64,000 nucleotides of DNA from positions 1,156 through 65,155 of the forward strand of contig JAQXBM010000052.1 of assembly GCA_029252405.1 (NCBI GenBank), in the 5' to 3' direction. The position numbers and the translations under genes are program-made. The stretch comes from Crocinitomicaceae bacterium. Lineage in GTDB: Bacteria; Bacteroidota; Bacteroidia; Flavobacteriales_D; Crocinitomicaceae. Under the pieces are notes generated by a model. The model searched no databases. It was not told the origin of the DNA and saw only the letters and a program-made list of their open reading frames with translations. Of the stretch, positions 14,957 through 23,791 are shown one piece after another (within the stretch, counting starts at the first letter, position 1; every line of letters starts with the position of its first letter).

Positions 14957-15268
14957 GTGTTTACTTTTGAGAATTACATCTGTTTTGGGATGTTCATAGG
15001 GGACCAACTCATTGGTGTTTCAAGCGGCTGGACCACGGTGCGATTGTATTCGGATAAGCAACTTGAAATAGACAATGTCATAATCAACGGAAATATTCAA
15101 TCAAAGGGTTACGGGAAAAAGCTCATTTCGGAAATTCAATTTTGGGTAACAAAAAACGGCTATAAAACAGTCGAATTACACACCTACCTCCAAAACGATC
15201 GATCGCATAAGTTCTATTTCAACCAAGGGTACAAAATACTCGGATTTCACTTTCAAAGAAAGCTTTAG
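14957..15268 (+). CDS. GNAT-family N-acetyltransferase, apparently N-terminally truncated
   Basis: Acetyl-CoA binding region (IQSKGYGKKLISE) and C-terminal FYFNQGYK. The product is only 103 aa with a GTG start, and the in-frame upstream region runs into TAA at 14891-14893. This may be a remnant. Confidence 0.55.
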   Translation: MFTFENYICFGMFIGDQLIGVSSGWTTVRLYSDKQLEIDNVIINGNIQSKGYGKKLISEIQFWVTKNGYKTVELHTYLQNDRSHKFYFNQGYKILGFHFQRKL

Positions 15269-15428: not shown

Positions 15429-18400
15429 ATGAGTGAAAACAACAATGATCCTAAACAGCCCACAGCTAACGACGTAAAGTGCTGGGACAGTAATGGAAGC
15501 ACAGAAAAAGTAACACAGCGTCTCAAAGAGATGTTCGTAGAAATGGGTCAAAAAACCCGAATCGAGGAAGGACAAACACCCGCAGAAAGAGCAGTATTCA
15601 GAAAACAACATGGTATTGCCTACGGGGAATTTATCGTCAATGATGATATTCCTGAAGAATACAAAGTAGGGATTTTTGCCGGTTCTCGCTACAGCTCTGC
15701 CCTTCGCTTTTCAAGTGATACTGGACTAACATCACCGGACTTACACACAACAATGGGAGTTGGGCTTAAGCTCTTCGGTGTTGAGGGTCCAAAACTCTTT
15801 GGAAAAGGAACAAATGCCGATTTCATCTTCCAAAATATTGATCGCTTTTTTGCCAAGGATGCACAACAGATGTGTACGTTCACTACTGCAGGAGTTATTG
15901 ATGGAGATTATGACGACTACATCGCCAAACATCCAGAGTTGGCGAGCATTTTGAATGCCATGATGAAAGAAGAAGCCAGCTGCTTAAGTGCCAGTTATTG
16001 GGCCATTCTTCCTTTCAAACTTGGAGAGTCGAACATTGTGAAATACCGATTGGTTCCAGATGAAGACGTAGATAGAGGTGCACCATTTGATGATGACAAC
16101 TACCTCAAGTTAGATTTAGAAAAACGCCTTCGCAACGGAAGTTCCACTTTTAGGTTTGAAATTCAACCTCGAACAAACGAAGAAACAATGCCACTCAATG
16201 ATGCACAAGTGGTTTGGAGCACAAAAGAAAGTGAATACGTTTGCATCGCCAAATTGCATTTGCCACAACAGGACGTGACGGCGATCGGCCAAGCAGATTT
16301 CGGAAGTGGTTTATCCTTCAACATTTGGAGAACGCTGGAAGCCCATCAGCCACTTGGTTCTATTTCAGAAGCGAGAAGAACAGTATACGCGGCGAGCGCT
16401 CAGGCTCGACAGCAAGCTAACGGTCAACCTCAACAGGAACCAAAAGAAATTAACCCTGCTTTTCAAGGTAATACAGACGAGGACAGCGATTGCATCGTAA
16501 AAGCCGCAATCTATCCACCGATTGGAGTGATGCGCGTTGGAAATAGTGAAGATGAATACTTCATCGGGCCGCTTGTTGATGAACCTGAAATAAAAGACGA
16601 TCCCTACGCCTACCGCGATAAGACAGGTGCGATTAAACGTCAAGCCGCGCAATTCAGGATTTACGGACTGAATGCTGCTGGAAAAGCGATTAAGGAATTA
16701 ACAATGGACAACGCCAATATTACCTGGCGATCTCATTTGGCGAATCAGAAAGCTTCGTGGTACCAATTTCAAATCGCATTGGATATTCCAGATGCGAATG
16801 ATCCAGATATTCCACCTTCATTGTTACGAAACATCGATGTGAAGAATCGTAAGAAATTGTTGATTGACGGCGGTAAGCGAAAAATCTCTGAACCGAATGT
16901 ATCAGTGGGGAAAAAGTTCAAGGGTAAATTCATGGGCGAGCGCGTATATTTGGGCGAAATGCACACAGACGAACAAGGGCGCTTAATCTTGCTAGGAGGA
17001 CACGGAAAATCCAAAAACTTCAATGGAGATAGAGCCATTACTTTCGCTAATAACGAAGGCTGGCACGATGACATGTCCGACGGTCCGGTAACGGCAACTG
17101 TAGAATACGAAGGAGTTCAACTTACCGTTGATCCAGCATGGGTTATTTGCGCTCCACCAGATTACGCACCAATGCAAAAATCGGTTCGAACAATGTGGGA
17201 CATGATGCGCAGCGTAGCTGTAGAAGCCGAAATGATGCCGCGACCAGCACGACCATCATTCAAAAAAGATATCCTCCCGATTTTCGAACGAATGACCAAC
17301 CTTCAATGGGTGAACGCAGGTTTTGCGGCGGCATTTGGTTGGGGCGGACAGTTCAACTATACGAGCCTCGAATGGGTGAAGAAACTCAACGACCCTACTT
17401 CTGCAAATTTTGCAATGCGAAGAACTATTTCGAATAATTTCCGGCGATTTGATGAGCCAGGAGCCACTGCTCCACAATTGTGGCCGTGGTTATATGGGGA
17501 TGCCGTAGCAATTCCTTCGCAGGGGTCTCCGCGTCAGCACGCAACCTTATCGACACTACAACTCGCCTTTTTGGATCAATGGGTTGAAGGCGATTTCGAT
17601 GCAGACTTTGTTGATATGACTGGGTGTCCACACGTCGAACCACCGAAAAAAATCGATGATTACCCTGTATCTGAACAACCAGATATGCTGACAAAAGCAG
17701 CGATGGATTTCTGTTTGGCAGATGCTTTCCACCCGGGTTGTGAAATGACGTGGCCAATGCGAACTTCAGGTATGTACTCGGAACCGTTCCGTTTAAAACA
17801 CGCTCCGAAAGAGCCTAAAACAGATTACAATTACTACGGTTCAACCATGAATAGTGATGTACTAACAATGCCGGCTGGACCTTTACTTGGAGGTCAAGTT
17901 CCTGGGGGAGTTACCCGCTGGATGGCCGTTCCATGGCAAACGGATACTGCAAGTTGCAGAGACGGATACACGACAACGTACGATCCATACTTGCCTACTT
18001 TCTGGCCTGCCCGAGTGCCTAATAACATCTTAAGTGAAGAGCGTTATCGAGAAACACTTGATCCTAAATTGTCAGAAGAAACACGTAAAGAAGCCTTCGC
18101 GTATCGCTATTTCTGGCTGGATGATTTACCGCTAGACGGAATGGCGCCAACGCAGACGAACCAGATCAATAGCATGATCAAGTATTTCGACAAATTGGCC
18201 ATTGTTCAGCATCGACCGGGAGTACCTGACAATCCTCTTTTCCCAAAACACATGCAGATTGGGGTTCCTCCAACAGATGAACAAAACGCGGCTCTTCTGA
18301 AGGCAACAGAAGAACGTTTGAGAGCAATTTTGGAGGATCAGCGAATGGACGGTAAAGAGAAAGAGATGATTCATACAACCCTCGACCATCTGTCAAAAGA

Positions 18401-18641
18401 AGGTTTGTTGAATGAGCAATTCAACCTAGAAGGCACACGCGATCAACTGCTTGAACTCGTAAAAGACGAGTTGCTTAAGGATGAAAAAGTGACGAAGGAA
18501 GTGAGAAAACTCGTGAACTTATTGTCTTCTGAAATCCATAAAAAGGAGAATAAGAAAACCGTTCCGCATGCTCGCCAACCACGCAAAGAAGTGGGTGTAC
18601 CAGAGCGCATGGTTCGTTTCCAACGTTTCAATCCGAAATAG
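15429..18641 (+). CDS. fusion protein: N-terminal catalase-like haem domain plus LodA/GoxA-family CTQ-dependent amino-acid oxidase, with a charged C-terminal tail
   Basis: aa about 45-330: RAVFRKQHGIAYGEF, RFSSDTG...GVGLKL, and HQPLGSISEARRTVYAASAQAR (distal His61 and proximal Tyr320 pattern). aa about 355-905: IYPPIGVMRVGNSEDEYFIGP, IKRQAAQFRIYG, HPGCEMTWPMR, WMAVPWQTDTASC. Confidence 0.8.
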   Translation: MSENNNDPKQPTANDVKCWDSNGSTEKVTQRLKEMFVEMGQKTRIEEGQTPAERAVFRKQHGIAYGEFIVNDDIPEEYKVGIFAGSRYSSALRFSSDTGLTSPDLHTTMGVGLKLFGVEGPKLFGKGTNADFIFQNIDRFFAKDAQQMCTFTTAGVIDGDYDDYIAKHPELASILNAMMKEEASCLSASYWAILPFKLGESNIVKYRLVPDEDVDRGAPFDDDNYLKLDLEKRLRNGSSTFRFEIQPRTNEETMPLNDAQVVWSTKESEYVCIAKLHLPQQDVTAIGQADFGSGLSFNIWRTLEAHQPLGSISEARRTVYAASAQARQQANGQPQQEPKEINPAFQGNTDEDSDCIVKAAIYPPIGVMRVGNSEDEYFIGPLVDEPEIKDDPYAYRDKTGAIKRQAAQFRIYGLNAAGKAIKELTMDNANITWRSHLANQKASWYQFQIALDIPDANDPDIPPSLLRNIDVKNRKKLLIDGGKRKISEPNVSVGKKFKGKFMGERVYLGEMHTDEQGRLILLGGHGKSKNFNGDRAITFANNEGWHDDMSDGPVTATVEYEGVQLTVDPAWVICAPPDYAPMQKSVRTMWDMMRSVAVEAEMMPRPARPSFKKDILPIFERMTNLQWVNAGFAAAFGWGGQFNYTSLEWVKKLNDPTSANFAMRRTISNNFRRFDEPGATAPQLWPWLYGDAVAIPSQGSPRQHATLSTLQLAFLDQWVEGDFDADFVDMTGCPHVEPPKKIDDYPVSEQPDMLTKAAMDFCLADAFHPGCEMTWPMRTSGMYSEPFRLKHAPKEPKTDYNYYGSTMNSDVLTMPAGPLLGGQVPGGVTRWMAVPWQTDTASCRDGYTTTYDPYLPTFWPARVPNNILSEERYRETLDPKLSEETRKEAFAYRYFWLDDLPLDGMAPTQTNQINSMIKYFDKLAIVQHRPGVPDNPLFPKHMQIGVPPTDEQNAALLKATEERLRAILEDQRMDGKEKEMIHTTLDHLSKEGLLNEQFNLEGTRDQLLELVKDELLKDEKVTKEVRKLVNLLSSEIHKKENKKTVPHARQPRKEVGVPERMVRFQRFNPK

Positions 18642-18649
18642 ACGAACGG

Positions 18650-19741
18650 TTGTCGGATAACAAAACGGATATATTAATCATTGGTGGCGGTATTGCAGGT
18701 TGCATTGCCGCCATCTCTTTGGTGGATACTCATCACGTCACCTTGGTCGACAAACTTTCGCAGCCCAAAGAACGCATTGGAGAATCCTTGGCGCCTGCAG
18801 CGAATCGCATCTTGGATGAACTCGGTTTATTGAAAGAAATAGAGAATCACTCTCCACCTATTTTTAAGCAAAACTTGGGAATGCAATCCTATTGGGGAAG
18901 TGACCAACTGCAGATTGTTGATCACATGCGAAACCCCGATGGATTTGTGAAAAGCTTGGACAGAAAAGCCTTTGAAGTGTACCTCCGCAAAGTGGTTGAA
19001 GATCGTGGCGTGAATTGTTTTTGGGGTTCGGCTTTGTATGCCAGTTCCTATGAGGATTCCTGCTGGGAGATTAAGCTGCGTTCTGTTGTTGACGAATCAA
19101 CTGATCAGCAGATATCTGCTGAATTTGTCATTGATGCCAGTGGACGGCAGTCTCATTTTGCAAGAAGTATTGGTGTAAAAAGGCAAGTAGAAGATAAATT
19201 GCTCGCTTGTTGGATCACACTACCAAATGTGCAAGAAAACACAATGAGTACCATCTCGTCGAGCTCGAATGGTTGGTGGTACAGCTCCGTGGTACCAAAT
19301 GGAAAACGGGTAATGGCTTTTCACACGGATTCCGATTTGATTGAAAAAAGTGCCTTGAAAACAGCACAATCTTTTATTGATTTAGCGAAGGAAAACGAGC
19401 AGATGAAAATGCTGTTGAACGAGGCTAAAAGCGCGATGGAGTTTCACGGGACTACTGCGGCAAACTCAACAAAACTAGAGCAAGTGGCAGGCAAACAATG
19501 GGTAGCAATTGGCGATGCCGCCGTCAGCTTTGATCCCCTGTCATCTCAAGGAATGTTTAATGCAATGGCCAGTGCAATGCAATTGCAAAGATTAATCAAC
19601 GAATTTGGTTTCGCAGACGAAGTCTCTAAACACTACACGAATCAAGTGGAACAAATTTGGGCGCATTACTTGAAGCATCGAAGTTTGTTTTATGGCGCTG
19701 AGAGAAGATGGAAAAGTGAGTTTTGGGAAAGACGTTTGTAA
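18650..19741 (+). CDS. LodB-like FAD-dependent flavoprotein (candidate CTQ-maturation enzyme)
   Basis: TTG start lies 9 nt after the oxidase stop. Rossmann motif DILIIGGGIAGCIAA and distal GDAAVSFDPLSSQG motif are typical of the tryptophan-halogenase/LodB-like flavoenzyme family. Confidence 0.75.
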   Translation: MSDNKTDILIIGGGIAGCIAAISLVDTHHVTLVDKLSQPKERIGESLAPAANRILDELGLLKEIENHSPPIFKQNLGMQSYWGSDQLQIVDHMRNPDGFVKSLDRKAFEVYLRKVVEDRGVNCFWGSALYASSYEDSCWEIKLRSVVDESTDQQISAEFVIDASGRQSHFARSIGVKRQVEDKLLACWITLPNVQENTMSTISSSSNGWWYSSVVPNGKRVMAFHTDSDLIEKSALKTAQSFIDLAKENEQMKMLLNEAKSAMEFHGTTAANSTKLEQVAGKQWVAIGDAAVSFDPLSSQGMFNAMASAMQLQRLINEFGFADEVSKHYTNQVEQIWAHYLKHRSLFYGAERRWKSEFWERRL

Positions 19742-21760: not shown

Positions 21761-23791
21761 ATGAAAAAGCCATTTGAACGCATTATTACGGTAATGTTCG
21801 AGAATCAATACAGGAACTACGTTATTTCCAACCCTTTTCTCAAAAAGTTAGCCTCTGCGGGAGCAGATATGACCAACTACTTCGGTGCATTTCACCCTTC
21901 CCAAACGAATTACCTAGCTTCTTTCTCGGGCGAAATATGCAGCACTACCAATGACACGGCTCCAACCGCACCATTGATGCAGAAAACGCTCGTTGACCTT
22001 TTGGAAGAAAAAAATGTCAGTTGGAAAGCATACATGGAGGCTTATCCAAACGAGCCATGGAACCCTGCTTGGAAAAGCCCAAAATATCCGGCAAGTGATG
22101 CGCCAATTGCACAGTTTCCGCCTGCCGGAGCAAAGGACTTGTCACGCTATTACCGAAAGCACAACGCCTTTGCCTCGTTTCACAGCGTTCAAAAGGAAGA
22201 AGCACGATGGAAAAAGATCGTCAACGACTCAGAGTTTTGGGGTGATGTTGCCGCAAATTCTCTTCCTGAATACAGCTGGTTTACCCCTGATATTTGGAAT
22301 GATGGGCACTATTTGTACAACACGCATATCGACACGAACCCAAGAACGCAGCTTGTTCCTCAATTATCGTCTTGGCTAGAACATGTATTTTTTGGGAATC
22401 TCACGCCCGACGAAATTCAAGGGGGAACGGACACTGGTGTAAGTACCATTGGACTCAATTTGGACGTTGATTTGCTCCTAACTGACCCGAAGAAAGCATG
22501 GGAACAATCGAATGTGCCGAGCGGTACGTTAATCGTTGTTACGTTTGATGAAGCTGATTATGATGCTGCGGGATACGACACAATGTATGATGGCCCCAAC
22601 CAAATATACACGGTTCTTTTGGGTGATATGATTGAAGCTGGAACAGAGATTTCTACTCCATACAATCACTACAACCTTATCCGCACGGTACAGGAGAATT
22701 TTCAATTGAATTCTCTCGAGAAGAATGATCATGGAGCGAACTGGTTCCGCTTCCTGTGGAACGAACGTTTCTCATGGGATAAAACGACACCAACAAAGTT
22801 TACTGTTGGAAATCAACTTGCCATTACAAACGGTTCAAACGGAGAATATTTGGTGTATTCAAACTCGGGCGGTCAACTATTTAGCAGTATTTTAACGAAC
22901 TCTGCCTGGAGTGCCCCACATGAGTTAAGCATTAACACTGCTGGACCAATCGCTATGGGAACCATTGGAAATACGACAACTTTAGTTTACACCGACAGCA
23001 ATAAAGAGTTGTTTCAAGCGACCTACGACAGTGTTAAAAACCAATGGTCCAAATCGAGCTCCTTGAATGTAAAGTCCTTAGGAAGTATTGCGTTAACAGC
23101 GTACACGGATGTATTGAGTTCCTCTCAAAAAATGATGCTCTGTTGGGTTTCAGAAAATGGGTTTATTCAGTCCATGGATGGCGATGCGAATGGGTTCTCA
23201 GGAACCATTGTTCCAGTATACCAGCTGACCGACGGAAACATGACCTTAGGACAAGTTGGAGCTTCACTCTTTTTAGTTTACAAAGAAAGAAACACTCGAA
23301 AGATGCGCATAACATCGTACAATACAGCGCCATACAACGCCTTCGAAGCACATGATTTTAGCGGTGCAAAAGCACCACTTAACAACACCACAATTGGCAA
23401 GTGGTCCGTGACTGATTATTCAGTTGGTCACTTCTCTAAAAAAATGGCTGCCTTTGCCGAGGAATATCAAAATTTGGGGCACTTAACGATGGCAACTTTG
23501 TCTGGAGAAATGCACCTAGTTCATCGTGGCGGATATCAAGATACTTCCAACGCCTATACTGAGCTCTTCGGACTTACGGGGATCTATTCTGCTGCCAATC
23601 AGTACTCAAATGGCTATGGGACTTTGAACCAAGCCGGATGGACGATAGAAGAAGAATTACCGGGAATAGAAATCGGTGTTGACAGTCCTATCGCGATGTG
23701 TTCTAACGGATCTTCACTTACGCTTGTTTGGGCGGACGAGAAGAGTAAAACCCTCCTGTTTACACAAGGAAAATACGCTACCAAAAAATAA
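21761..23791 (+). CDS. phosphoesterase-family (AcpA/PLC-like) domain fused to a C-terminal repeat (propeller-like) domain
   Basis: N-terminal half: VMFENQYRNY, HPSQTNYL, DIWNDGH, VVTFDEADYD. C-terminal about 340 aa: six or more repeats of the type xxLVYxxxxxxLFxxxY. No signal peptide is visible. Confidence 0.65.
   Translation: MKKPFERIITVMFENQYRNYVISNPFLKKLASAGADMTNYFGAFHPSQTNYLASFSGEICSTTNDTAPTAPLMQKTLVDLLEEKNVSWKAYMEAYPNEPWNPAWKSPKYPASDAPIAQFPPAGAKDLSRYYRKHNAFASFHSVQKEEARWKKIVNDSEFWGDVAANSLPEYSWFTPDIWNDGHYLYNTHIDTNPRTQLVPQLSSWLEHVFFGNLTPDEIQGGTDTGVSTIGLNLDVDLLLTDPKKAWEQSNVPSGTLIVVTFDEADYDAAGYDTMYDGPNQIYTVLLGDMIEAGTEISTPYNHYNLIRTVQENFQLNSLEKNDHGANWFRFLWNERFSWDKTTPTKFTVGNQLAITNGSNGEYLVYSNSGGQLFSSILTNSAWSAPHELSINTAGPIAMGTIGNTTTLVYTDSNKELFQATYDSVKNQWSKSSSLNVKSLGSIALTAYTDVLSSSQKMMLCWVSENGFIQSMDGDANGFSGTIVPVYQLTDGNMTLGQVGASLFLVYKERNTRKMRITSYNTAPYNAFEAHDFSGAKAPLNNTTIGKWSVTDYSVGHFSKKMAAFAEEYQNLGHLTMATLSGEMHLVHRGGYQDTSNAYTELFGLTGIYSAANQYSNGYGTLNQAGWTIEEELPGIEIGVDSPIAMCSNGSSLTLVWADEKSKTLLFTQGKYATKK

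What the first reader, a model, noticed from the sequence alone, without database searches (positions are those of the whole stretch)
15429..19741. lodAB-like operon whose quinoprotein oxidase is fused to an N-terminal catalase-like haem domain
The C-terminal about 550 aa of the 1070-aa protein carries LodA/GoxA hallmarks: IYPPIGVMRVGNS..EYFIGP, IKRQAAQFRIYG, and the motifs HPGC(771)EMTWP and VPW(836)QTD. As I recall, the CTQ residues are Cys516/Trp581 in LodA and Cys551/Trp616 in GoxA, which is 65 residues apart in both. The Cys771-Trp836 spacing here is also 65. The downstream flavoprotein, starting 9 nt later, matches the LodB role in CTQ biogenesis.

The first about 330 aa look like a catalase-related haem domain: R..FRKQH61G, RFSS..G, and HQPLG..ARRTVY320..S...R. 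LodA-type enzymes release H2O2 and act as antimicrobial and biofilm-dispersal factors. A covalently attached catalase- or peroxidase-like domain could detoxify the H2O2, or use it in situ in a coupled oxidase-peroxygenase chemistry. I do not recall such a fusion being characterised.
Basis: partly seen in the sequence, partly recalled or inferred. Interest (0 to 1): 0.75.

Follow-up and report, generated by a model that had tools for sequence, protein, structure and literature searches.

The report
Quinone amine oxidase fused to haem domain
This two-gene cassette encodes a quinone-cofactor amine oxidase with a catalase-shaped haem domain fused to its front, plus the flavoprotein that builds the quinone; the design was catalogued in 2015 but never tested, and the haem domain lacks the histidine a real catalase needs.

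Summary
The ORFs are real: a 1070-aa protein (15429-18641) followed 8 nt later by a LodB/GoxB-type flavoprotein (18650-19741). The C-terminal part is a clear LodA/GoxA-family CTQ oxidase. It scores below both NCBIfam equivalog cut-offs, so its substrate is unknown. The N-terminal 330 aa is a genuine catalase-fold "mini-catalase"; its closest solved structure is MAP-2744c.

- The catalase distal His aligns with Phe57, not His61. Phe57 is invariant in 76/76 orthologues.
- The CTQ pair is Cys843/Trp859, with Asp839 and His768 nearby, not Cys771/Trp836.

The proximal Tyr320/Arg316, the three haem-propionate Arg and the distal Asn136 are all kept. The domain therefore probably binds haem but is unlikely to be a classical catalase.

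The fusion is not new. Campillo-Brocal et al. (2015) listed 21 such proteins, including the Tenacibaculum ovolyticum orthologue, and none has been characterised.

One observation I did not find in the papers I read: the Phe-type mini-catalases form a subfamily tied to LodA-like genes. They are either fused or encoded next to one (6/6 stand-alone cases, against 0/3 His-type controls). Close relatives of the oxidase (78% identity) lack the module entirely.

Verdict: a new member of a known but uncharacterised architecture, of moderate interest.

The parts
15429..18641 (+). Gene for the 1070-aa fusion protein (mini-catalase domain + LodA/GoxA-family CTQ oxidase + C-terminal tail)
   Evidence: ORF. 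Domains. 66-86% identical full-length orthologues in 75 other genomes.
15501..16433 (+). N-terminal catalase-fold ('mini-catalase', y4iL/MAP-2744c-like) domain, aa ~25-335, of the Phe-type subfamily
   Evidence: Family profile against PDB: 3e4w at E 1.3e-18. AF2 pLDDT 88.7 with Foldseek hit to 3e4y at E 2.7e-15. Subfamily split.
15597..15599 (+). Phe57 codon: occupies the column of the catalase distal catalytic His
   Evidence: Alignments to 3e4w, 4qol and 1qwl. F in 76/76 orthologues. F in 65 and H in 108 of 178 representative domains.
15609..15611 (+). Conserved in both Phe-type and His-type mini-catalases, but not the distal His by alignment
   Evidence: It aligns with a 2-residue gap in MAP-2744c and with a small residue (Ser or Ala) in the two true catalases whose alignments were printed (1qwl, 4qol).
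15831..15836 (+). Gln135-Asn136 codons. Asn136 is the catalase distal Asn. Gln135 is a Phe-type-specific partner (62/65 against 0-3% in His-type)
16374..16409 (+). Arg316...Tyr320...Arg327: the proximal Arg, the proximal haem-ligand Tyr, and a haem-propionate Arg in the catalase pattern R-x3-Y-x6-R
   Evidence: Alignment to 3e4w and 6rjr. Invariant in 76/76 orthologues. Conserved in both subfamilies.
16494..18263 (+). [quoted passage not shown]
   Evidence: Foldseek of the full model: PlGoxA 6byw at E 1e-28, LodA 3weu at E 4e-25.
17730..17741 (+). His768-Pro-Gly-Cys771 motif. His768 aligns with PlGoxA active-site His583. Cys771 aligns with PlGoxA Val586 and is not the CTQ Cys
   Evidence: The H583C mutant entry 6vl7 is named.
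17943..18005 (+). Predicted cofactor segment: Asp839 (= LodA Asp512 / PlGoxA Asp678), Cys843 (= LodA Cys516 / PlGoxA Cys682, the CTQ Cys), Trp859 (= PlGoxA residue 697, the CTQ Trp)
   Evidence: All three are invariant in 76/76 orthologues. AF2 confidence is low across 839-861.
18264..18638 (+). C-terminal ~125-aa charged, predicted-helical tail with no family match
   Evidence: No Pfam or NCBIfam hit. Helices at low pLDDT. Conservation drops to 0.47-0.67. Only 45-68 residues remain in the Acanthopleuribacter, Holophagae and Alteromonadaceae orthologues.
18650..19741 (+). lodB/goxB-like gene: FAD-dependent maturase for CTQ biogenesis (363 aa, TTG start, 8-nt spacer)
   Evidence: NCBIfam LodB 241.8 bits, GoxB 227.1, QhpG 172.6, all below the equivalog cut-offs. 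Pfam Trp_halogenase and FAD_binding_3. Directly downstream in 76/76 complete loci.

Best explanation
This is a self-contained two-gene cassette on a Bacteroidota chromosome.

Gene 2 is a LodB/GoxB-type flavoprotein. It converts Cys843 and Trp859 of gene 1's product into the cysteine tryptophylquinone (CTQ) cofactor.

The C-terminal 590 aa of gene 1 is a LodA/GoxA-family ('Group III') amine or amino-acid oxidase. It should oxidise a still unknown primary amine to an aldehyde or oxo-acid, releasing NH3 and H2O2. It is closer to GoxA than to LodA but is an orthologue of neither.

The N-terminal 330 aa is a haem-binding mini-catalase domain of a specialised subtype. This subtype keeps the proximal Tyr/Arg, the three propionate-binding Arg and the distal Asn. 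It has replaced the catalytic distal His by Phe and gained a neighbouring Gln. The subtype is found essentially only with LodA-like oxidases, either fused or encoded alongside.

The most likely mechanism is that the haem site receives the peroxide made a few nanometres away at the CTQ site and uses it in a reaction other than classical dismutation. That could be a peroxidase- or peroxygenase-type step on the oxidase's own product or on a second substrate, with O-O cleavage helped by Asn136/Gln135 or by the substrate itself.

Shown here: the domain identities, the residue correspondences, the conservation, the gene linkage, and the optional nature of the module.

Inferred: haem binding, CTQ formation, peroxide hand-over, and the chemistry at the haem.
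For: Identity of the parts.

Haem-binding residues are retained and invariant. R54, R93, S95, N136, F140/F141, R316, Y320 and R327 are unchanged in 76/76 orthologues and align with the catalase and MAP-2744c haem residues.

The distal His is replaced by Phe in all 76 orthologues, and all 65 domains classed Phe-type by that column share Gln135 (62/65) and the retained haem-binding residues.

Functional linkage:
- The fusion plus lodB is the only conserved gene pair across the 76 complete loci, taken from Bacteroidota, Acidobacteriota and Gammaproteobacteria.
- Stand-alone Phe-type genes lie immediately upstream of a LodA-like gene (P0036, P0027, P0029, P0034), in the same cluster (P0025), or convergent to lodAB (P0033). 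That is 6/6.
- His-type controls P0039, P0041 and P0042 show no LodA-like neighbour, 0/3.

Precedent for the logic: the catalase-related AOS domain fused to the lipoxygenase whose hydroperoxide it consumes (3dy5 and 1u5u appear among the profile hits). His-type mini-catalases are likewise fused or adjacent to other peroxide enzymes.
Against: - No biochemical data exist for any member (PMC4417212; 10.64898/2026.03.27.714854).
- Without a distal His, compound I formation from H2O2 is normally very slow, so the domain might do little with peroxide.
- Oxidases 76-79% identical in the LodA-like region (Kordia, Aquimarina), and a 59% identical one (Pseudoalteromonas), lack the module. They have no homologue within 5-6 kb. 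The oxidase therefore works, or at least persists, without it.
- The full-length AF2 model has pTM of only 0.65 and gives no coordinates here. No inter-domain channel or interface could be shown.
- The neighbourhood sample is small: 6 Phe-type against 3 His-type.
Confidence: 0.55

Rival explanations
1. Built-in catalase. The N-terminal domain simply dismutates the H2O2 released by the oxidase domain, protecting the producer cell.
For: The domain has the catalase fold and a complete set of haem-binding residues including the proximal Tyr. The protein has no signal peptide or T9SS C-terminal domain in its sequence (no such hit), so H2O2 would be made inside the cell. The idea is stated in 10.64898/2026.03.27.714854.
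Against: The distal His is an invariant Phe. From established catalase enzymology, that His is essential for compound I formation and for catalatic turnover. The closest solved relative, MAP-2744c, is described by its depositors as a catalase-related protein rather than a catalase. Mini-catalases lack the C-terminal helical domain of true catalases (own knowledge). Closely related unfused oxidases have no catalase gene nearby. [quoted passage not shown]
Confidence: 0.15
2. Cofactor-maturation helper. The haem domain takes part in CTQ biogenesis, for example the first Trp hydroxylation or the oxidation steps. This would be analogous to the di-haem MauG in TTQ biosynthesis, rather than acting on turnover products.
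For: Tryptophylquinone biogenesis does use a haem enzyme in the MADH system, and the first hydroxylation in LodA/GoxA is only loosely defined as 'autocatalytic, copper dependent' (PMC7876137). The Phe-type module strictly co-occurs with LodA-like genes. A site that is poor at peroxide dismutation would suit a slow, single-turnover role.
Against: Oxidases 76-79% identical, carrying the same LodB partner, lack the module altogether. A LodB-type maturase is still present in all 76 complete loci. MauG is a c-type di-haem protein with no relationship to the catalase fold.
Confidence: 0.12
3. Non-catalytic module. The catalase-fold domain serves as an oligomerisation scaffold, a haem or redox sensor that gates the oxidase, or a haem-free relic.
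For: A key catalytic residue has been lost. The module is dispensable in close relatives. At least one stand-alone Tenacibaculum copy (P0037) has also lost Arg316/Tyr320, which shows that decay does happen.
Against: Conservation across the domain is as high as in the oxidase part (0.8-0.94 per 30-residue block). It includes every residue that contacts haem in catalases, plus a subtype-specific Gln135-Asn136 pair at the distal face. This pattern is that of an active site under selection, not of a scaffold.
Confidence: 0.12

Closest known systems
Group III LodA-like proteins with an N-terminal pfam00199 / cd08152 (y4iL-like) domain (Campillo-Brocal et al. 2015, PMC4417212, Table 3), e.g. Tenacibaculum ovolyticum H518DRAFT_02976 (1061 aa) and Flavobacterium soli G508DRAFT_03147 (1072 aa)
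   Same: Same architecture, same length class, and the same lodB gene downstream. The T. ovolyticum DSM 18103 locus (L040) encodes a 1061-aa protein 70.7% identical over aa 18-1070.
   Different: Nothing architectural differs. The window protein is simply a further orthologue; the best match is 86% identical, from a Flavobacteriales MAG. The 2015 paper, in the passages read here, did not report the His-to-Phe change or the split-gene versions.
PlGoxA / GoxA, the CTQ-dependent glycine oxidase (PDB 6byw, 6eer)
   Same: Best sequence and structure match for aa ~356-945 (phmmer E 3e-44, Foldseek E 1e-28). Shares the cofactor-region residues Asp839 / Cys843 / Trp859 (= 678 / 682 / 697) and the active-site His768 (= His583).
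   Different: The NCBIfam GoxA score is 396.7 against an equivalog cut-off of 750. PlGoxA Tyr766/His767 align with variable Met905/Ala906. GoxA has no haem domain and no C-terminal tail. Glycine specificity is therefore not implied.
LodA, L-lysine epsilon-oxidase of Marinomonas mediterranea (PDB 2ymw, 3weu)
   Same: Same fold and family (E 2e-39; Foldseek E 4e-25). Cys516 aligns with Cys843. Has a LodB partner.
   Different: The NCBIfam LodA score is 186 against a cut-off of 600. The alignment breaks right after the CTQ Cys, where LodA has 65 residues between Cys and Trp against 16 here. The window has His768 at the GoxA His583 position; from memory, LodA has Cys448 there.
MAP-2744c, the 33-kDa catalase-related haem protein of Mycobacterium avium subsp. 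paratuberculosis (PDB 3e4w/3e4y), and the y4iL-like mini-catalases
   Same: Same ~300-aa catalase core without the C-terminal helical domain. Best profile hit (E 1.3e-18) and best structural hit (TMt 0.75). The proximal Tyr and Arg align.
   Different: MAP-2744c and 108 of 178 representative domains keep the distal His (motif R-x-x-H-x-K). The window domain belongs to the 65-member Phe-type (R-x-V-F-[RL]-K-x-H-G with Q135-N136).
Coral allene oxide synthase-lipoxygenase fusion (PDB 3dy5; AOS domain 1u5u)
   Same: Works alike in layout: an N-terminal catalase-related haem domain fused to a C-terminal oxygen-activating enzyme whose peroxide product it consumes. It appears among the profile hits (E 6e-8 and 3e-7).
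   Different: The partner there is a lipoxygenase and the peroxide is a fatty-acid hydroperoxide. From memory, cAOS retains the distal His. The resemblance is in logic only; this is not the same family of fusions.

Membership tests
LodA/GoxA family of CTQ-dependent oxidases | LodA_N and LodA_C domains above the curated thresholds | tested here: met
   PF17990 261.6 bits (cut-off 26.3) and PF18417 140.3 bits (cut-off 25). Foldseek hits to 6byw and 3weu.
LodA/GoxA family of CTQ-dependent oxidases | Cys aligned with the CTQ Cys (LodA Cys516), four residues after the conserved Asp (LodA Asp512 / PlGoxA Asp678) | tested here: met
   Asp839-x3-Cys843. The LodA 3weu alignment ends at 517 = window 844. 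PlGoxA D678/C682 align. Invariant in 76/76. Asp678 is named in PMC7876137.
LodA/GoxA family of CTQ-dependent oxidases | Trp aligned with the quinone-bearing Trp | tested here: met
   Trp859 aligns with PlGoxA residue 697. In the 6vmw alignment that was printed, residue 697 is a non-standard residue (X), and 6vmw is a glycine-soaked structure. The same is inferred from matching score drops for 6eer, 6vmf, 6vl7 and 6ubn. A direct alignment to LodA Trp581 could not be obtained, so Trp896 is not formally excluded.
LodA/GoxA family of CTQ-dependent oxidases | Adjacent downstream LodB/GoxB-type flavoprotein gene | tested here: met
   18650-19741. LodB model 241.8 bits, GoxB model 227.1 bits. Adjacent in 76/76 loci.
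LodA/GoxA family of CTQ-dependent oxidases | CTQ cofactor actually present and amine oxidase activity with H2O2 release | not testable with these tools
   Needs protein chemistry: quinone staining, mass spectrometry, activity assays.
GoxA (glycine oxidase) equivalog | Score at or above the NCBIfam NF038173 cut-off, with the glycine-site residues | tested here: not met
   396.7 bits against a cut-off of 750. PlGoxA Tyr766/His767 align with variable Met905/Ala906.
LodA (lysine epsilon-oxidase) equivalog | Score at or above the NCBIfam NF038172 cut-off | tested here: not met
   186.3 bits against a cut-off of 600. The alignment stops at model position 504 of 684.
Catalase-related mini-catalases (y4iL-like / MAP-2744c-like haem proteins) | Catalase core fold of about 300 aa | tested here: met
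   AF2 pLDDT 88.7. Foldseek 3e4y at E 2.7e-15, TMt 0.75. Profile against 3e4w at E 1.3e-18 over 46-331 / 26-313.
Catalase-related mini-catalases (y4iL-like / MAP-2744c-like haem proteins) | Proximal Tyr ligand with its Arg partner, plus the propionate-binding Arg residues | tested here: met
   Arg316, Tyr320 and Arg327 are seen aligned to the catalase / MAP-2744c residues, as is Arg54. Arg93 lies in the RFS motif that aligns with the catalase RFS motif, and its role as a propionate-binding Arg is from established catalase structure. All are invariant in 76/76.
Catalase-related mini-catalases (y4iL-like / MAP-2744c-like haem proteins) | Distal catalytic His (R-x-x-H motif) | tested here: not met
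   Phe57 occupies the column. F in 76/76 orthologues.
Catalase-related mini-catalases (y4iL-like / MAP-2744c-like haem proteins) | Distal Asn | tested here: met
   Asn136 aligns with the catalytic Asn of the G-N-N motif in 4qol. N in 75/76 orthologues.
Catalase-related mini-catalases (y4iL-like / MAP-2744c-like haem proteins) | Pfam Catalase (PF00199) gathering score | tested here: not met
   17.1 bits against 25 for aa 52-154 only. Some orthologues carry a precomputed PF00199 hit.
Catalase-related mini-catalases (y4iL-like / MAP-2744c-like haem proteins) | Bound haem b | not testable with these tools
   Needs a UV-visible Soret spectrum or a pyridine haemochrome assay.
Monofunctional (true) catalases | Distal His-Asn pair, the ~480-750-aa subunit with wrapping loop and helical domain, and catalatic activity | tested here: not met
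   The distal His is absent. The domain ends at about aa 335 and matches only the N-terminal and beta-barrel part of catalases (Pfam profile positions 43-140 of 383; Foldseek TMt 0.45-0.5).
LodB/GoxB CTQ maturases | Full-length match to the LodB/GoxB models and an N-terminal FAD-binding GxGxxG | tested here: met
   Aligned over 7-362 of 363 to both models. IIGGGIAG at aa 9-16. Scores are below the 400-bit equivalog cut-offs, so membership is at family level only.

The most novel reading that the evidence does not exclude
The Phe-type mini-catalase may be a previously unrecognised, dedicated haem partner of CTQ oxidases that is not a catalase at all. One possibility is that it captures the oxidase's H2O2 and, by Asn/Gln-assisted or substrate-assisted O-O cleavage, carries out a second oxidation on the nascent aldehyde or imine. 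That would be a one-polypeptide oxidase-peroxygenase cascade giving a product different from that of the unfused relatives. The other possibility is that it acts as a MauG-like haem maturase for the quinone. Either would define a new enzymatic function for the catalase fold and a third component ('LodC') of a subset of lod operons.
Probability: 0.25. Interest if true: 0.7.

Novelty: new member of a known kind. Interest (0 to 1): 0.4.

Why it matters
LodA-like quinoproteins are H2O2-generating enzymes implicated in biofilm dispersal and microbial antagonism. They are also sought as biosensor and biocatalysis enzymes. Group III, to which this protein belongs, has no characterised member, so even its substrate is unknown.

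A haem domain wired to the peroxide source would change what the enzyme releases: less or no H2O2, or a further-oxidised product. That in turn changes its ecological role.

Three findings here give a ready-made experimental design:
- The fused domain has lost the catalytic His but kept every haem-binding residue.
- The subtype travels only with LodA-like genes.
- Natural fused, split and module-free versions exist at 60-80% identity.

They also caution against annotating these proteins as 'catalase', as some database records already do (for example P0222).

Tried and rejected
- Single-sequence searches of the N-domain were nearly blind. Pfam Catalase gave E 0.003, below threshold, and PDB phmmer gave E 0.16. 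A family profile and AF2 were needed.
- The search for related loci with the broad alignment A1 failed because it had no conserved 7-10-mer. The narrower A2 worked.
- I tried to align LodA Trp581 directly. LodA alignments always stop at residue 517, and a profile of aa 845-940 did not retrieve LodA even at E<=10. The papers that state the PlGoxA and GoxA cofactor residues (PMC5886718, PMC5087737) are not held, and a text search for the residue names found nothing relevant. The Trp859 assignment therefore rests on the non-standard residue 697 in glycine-soaked PlGoxA entries.
- I tested whether the 720-aa relatives are split genes with a catalase ORF upstream. The Kordia upstream 341-aa gene is unrelated, and tblastn finds no N-domain homologue in L081, L094 or L095. 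The split-gene idea is rejected for these.
- I looked for conserved neighbours beyond lodB. There are none across 76 loci, and none of the window's flanking genes recur except DUF2807 in one locus.
- Promoter and terminator scans gave no more sites than shuffled sequence. Sigma-70 consensus scans are not informative for Bacteroidota.
- The full-length AF2 model (pTM 0.65) gave no usable information on the domain interface, because no coordinates or PAE are returned.
- A literature search on catalase-related proteins with altered distal or proximal haem residues (terms 'catalase-related', 'distal histidine', 'proximal tyrosine') found nothing relevant.

Full report
**1. What is in the sequence**

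The window carries an ATG-to-TAG ORF of 1070 aa at 15429-18641 on the + strand. Eight nucleotides after its stop, a 363-aa ORF starts with TTG (18650-19741).

The surrounding genes show an ordinary Bacteroidota chromosomal setting:
- ribonucleotide reductase alpha and beta
- two cargo proteins bearing the C-terminal sorting domain of the type IX secretion system (T9SS)
- a ComF-like phosphoribosyltransferase
- a DUF2807 protein
- an HxlR regulator
- a DoxX-like protein

**2. The C-terminal two-thirds**

Pfam places LodA_N at aa 362-574 (E 9e-78) and LodA_C at aa 698-859 (E 5e-41). NCBIfam's GoxA model aligns over aa 322-935 at 396.7 bits, and the LodA model over aa 360-845 at 186.3 bits. Both are far below the equivalog cut-offs of 750 and 600.

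The protein is therefore a member of the LodA/GoxA family, closer to GoxA, but an orthologue of neither. Its substrate cannot be read from homology.

A full-length AF2 model (pLDDT 78, pTM 0.65) finds PlGoxA (6byw, E 1e-28) and LodA (3weu, E 4e-25) as its best structural matches. ORF2 aligns end to end with the LodB, GoxB and QhpG maturase models.

**3.

- phmmer against LodA in native numbering (3weu, 726 aa) aligns window aa 743-844 to LodA 427-517. This places LodA Cys516 on Cys843.
- In PlGoxA, Asp678 aligns with Asp839 and Cys682 with Cys843. Asp678 is the residue mutated in entries 6ubr, 6ufq and 6ubn, and is named in PMC7876137.
- One PlGoxA entry printed (6vmw) shows a non-standard residue 'X' at position 697. 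Foldseek's entry titles show that 6vmw and the other entries with the same score drop (6eer, 6vmf, 6vl7, 6ubn) are glycine-soaked or glycine-bound structures. Residue 697 is therefore the quinone-bearing Trp carrying the substrate adduct. It aligns with Trp859.
It cannot be the universally conserved CTQ Cys.
- The motif F-H768-P-G-C771 is instead the equivalent of the PlGoxA active-site His583 motif (the H583C entry is 6vl7).
- Trp836 is the Trp of the P-W-Q-x-D839 motif that precedes the cofactor Asp.
- The 65-residue spacing between Cys771 and Trp836 is coincidental. LodA's own 65-residue Cys-Trp spacing reflects extra sequence after the Cys, which is also why every LodA alignment breaks at residue 517.
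- Asp839, Cys843 and Trp859 are invariant in 76/76 orthologues.
- I could not align LodA Trp581 directly. Trp859 is therefore well supported but not proven, and Trp896 is the only alternative.
- The PlGoxA glycine-site residues Tyr766/His767 align with variable positions 905/906, again arguing against glycine specificity.

**4. The N-terminal third**

Alone, aa 1-360 gives only a sub-threshold Pfam Catalase hit: 17.1 bits against a cut-off of 25, covering aa 52-154.

A profile built from 31 homologues (A1) hits the 33-kDa catalase-related protein MAP-2744c (3e4w) at E 1.3e-18 over nearly its whole length. It then hits bona fide catalases and the coral allene oxide synthase domain. An AF2 model of aa 1-350 is confident (pLDDT 88.7, pTM 0.87). 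It superposes best on 3e4y (E 2.7e-15, target-normalised TM-score TMt 0.75) and then on catalases. The catalase-fold call is correct.

**5. The haem pocket**

The printed alignments give these correspondences to the catalase haem residues:

| Window residue | Catalase counterpart |
|---|---|
| Arg54 | Arg of R-x-x-H (propionate binding) |
| Arg93-Phe-Ser95 | R-F-S motif |
| Asn136 | second Asn of G-N-N (distal Asn) |
| Phe141 | distal Phe |
| Arg316-x3-Tyr320-x6-Arg327 | proximal Arg, proximal Tyr ligand, third propionate Arg |

All of these are invariant in the 76 orthologues.

The distal catalytic His column, however, holds Phe57, in the motif R54-A-V-F57-R-K-Q-H61-G. This holds in alignments to MAP-2744c, Bacillus pumilus catalase and H. 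pylori KatA.

In the two true catalases whose alignments were printed (KatA and the B. pumilus enzyme) it aligns with a small residue, Ser or Ala. It is conserved in mini-catalases whether or not they have the distal His. By homology it is not the catalytic residue.

**6. A Phe-type subfamily**

An exhaustive HMMER search of 1.84 billion representatives found 7106 relatives. Among the 178 best domains aligned to the profile, 108 have His at column 57 (motif R-D-A-H-P-K-x-H-G), 65 have Phe and 2 have Gln.

The Phe-type carries correlated changes. The most notable is Gln135 next to the distal Asn: 62/65, against at most 3% in the His-type. Others are Asp97, Ser96, Met178 and Arg233. Both types share the haem-binding set.

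Every LodA fusion in the sample is Phe-type. His-type domains are instead fused to DyP peroxidases, animal-type haem peroxidases or RoxA-like di-haem cytochromes.

**7. Comparative genomics**

A scan of one genome per GTDB species found 277 loci encoding a relative. The best 80 are 68-85% identical in the N-domain. They come mostly from Flavobacterium, Tenacibaculum, Dokdonia, Taibaiella, Pedobacter and Mucilaginibacter, but also from Acanthopleuribacter, a Holophagae MAG and Alteromonadaceae.

All 76 loci with enough sequence encode the fusion, and 75 of them a full-length (>900-aa) one of about 1000-1100 aa, 66-86% identical over the whole length. A lodB-like gene follows immediately in every case. 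No other neighbour is conserved. This is a mobile two-gene unit under strong purifying selection.

Stand-alone Phe-type genes tell the same story:
- P0036, P0027, P0029 and P0034 lie directly upstream of a LodA-like gene.
- P0025 lies two genes upstream of one.
- P0033 is a convergent neighbour of a lodA-lodB pair.
- Three His-type controls are not LodA-linked. One of them sits next to an animal-haem-peroxidase gene.

Conversely, oxidases 76-79% identical in the LodA part (720 aa, from Kordia and Aquimarina) and 59% identical (652 aa, from Pseudoalteromonas) start right at the I-Y-P-P-I-G motif. They have no N-domain homologue within 5-6 kb.

The haem module is thus specifically associated with this oxidase family. 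It occurs as fusion, split gene or not at all, and it is not required for the oxidase to exist.

**8. Literature**

Campillo-Brocal et al. (BMC Genomics 2015, PMC4417212) listed 21 LodA-like proteins with an N-terminal pfam00199 / cd08152 (y4iL-like) domain. The list includes Flavobacterium soli (1072 aa) and Tenacibaculum ovolyticum (1061 aa, my locus L040, 70.7% identical).

That paper placed them all in Group III and stated that no Group III protein had been characterised. [quoted passage not shown]

A July 2026 preprint on a Rickettsiales endosymbiont re-noticed the architecture and proposed immediate H2O2 detoxification. It explicitly left the function open. Searches for any biochemical study found none.

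**9. Interpretation**

Shown:
- domain identities
- residue correspondences
- conservation
- linkage
- the optional nature of the module

Inferred:
- The domain binds haem, because every haem-contact residue is conserved.
- It is not a classical catalase, because the distal His is replaced by Phe in all 76 orthologues and in every LodA-fused or LodA-adjacent copy examined.
- It acts on something the oxidase makes. This rests on Rosetta-stone logic and on the precedent of catalase-related AOS fused to lipoxygenase.

I consider a peroxide-consuming, non-dismutating haem reaction the most likely mechanism (about 0.5-0.55 together with the identity statement). The rivals are plain catalase detoxification (0.15), a role in CTQ maturation (0.12) and a non-catalytic module (0.12).

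**10. Verdict**

Both sets of catalytic residues were misidentified. The architecture has been on record since 2015.

What this analysis adds is threefold: the corrected residue map, the His-to-Phe subtype and its exclusive association with LodA-like genes, and the existence of natural fused, split and module-free variants.

This is a new member of a known but uncharacterised kind. Interest is moderate (0.4).

Noticed in passing
P0098, P0154, P0158, P0104, P0191, P0153 (representative proteins); L090 165-2781: His-type mini-catalase domains are themselves fused to other haem or peroxide enzymes: a DyP peroxidase, animal-type haem peroxidases, and RoxA-like di-haem cytochromes c. One stand-alone His-type gene (P0041) sits directly upstream of an animal-haem-peroxidase gene. 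Pairing a mini-catalase with a second redox enzyme seems to be a general theme.
   Followed up: partly
window 18264-18638 (aa 946-1070): The fusion protein ends in a ~125-aa lysine- and glutamate-rich tail, predicted helical, with no family match and lower conservation. Only 45-68 residues of it remain in the Acanthopleuribacter, Holophagae and Alteromonadaceae orthologues. The length of the unfused 720-aa Flavobacteriaceae relatives suggests they also carry it. Its function is unknown, and it is not a T9SS sorting domain.
   Followed up: partly
window 17724-17741 and 17943-18011 (aa 766-771, 839-861): In the full-length AF2 model the only low-confidence stretches (pLDDT < 50) inside the otherwise well-predicted oxidase core are aa 449-458, a short 691-693 stretch, and the two segments that carry His768 and the Asp839-Cys843-Trp859 cofactor region. 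For the cofactor segments, this may be because their native conformation depends on the cross-link.
   Followed up: no
P0037 (Tenacibaculum sp., 336 aa) in alignment A1: A stand-alone Phe-type copy that keeps V-F-K-Q-Q-H-G but has lost Arg316/Tyr320 and other conserved positions. It looks like a decaying paralogue.
   Followed up: no
P0024 (Skermanella aerolata, 456 aa, on a 364-kb contig); P0022 (Sphingomonas, 348 aa): Some genome-derived 'short' homologues diverge into unrelated sequence shortly after the catalase domain or early in LodA_N. This suggests frameshifted or pseudogenised fusions, or assembly errors.
   Followed up: no
window 21761-23791: A 676-aa protein whose first ~330 aa match the Phosphoesterase (phospholipase C / acid phosphatase) family. 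The C-terminal half is long, Ser/Thr/Gly-rich and repetitive-looking, and has no Pfam hit.
   Followed up: no
window 14957-15268: A 103-aa GTG-start ORF that matches only positions 32-115 of the 116-position GNAT acetyltransferase profile. It lies 160 nt upstream of the fusion gene. It is possibly a truncated gene or a mis-called start.
   Followed up: no
P0222 and P0003: Public records name full-length or partial orthologues simply 'catalase' (Tenacibaculum skagerrakense, Dokdonia MAG). One unfused relative carries a 'Valyl-tRNA synthetase' UniRef name (P0234). Annotation of this family is unreliable.
   Followed up: no
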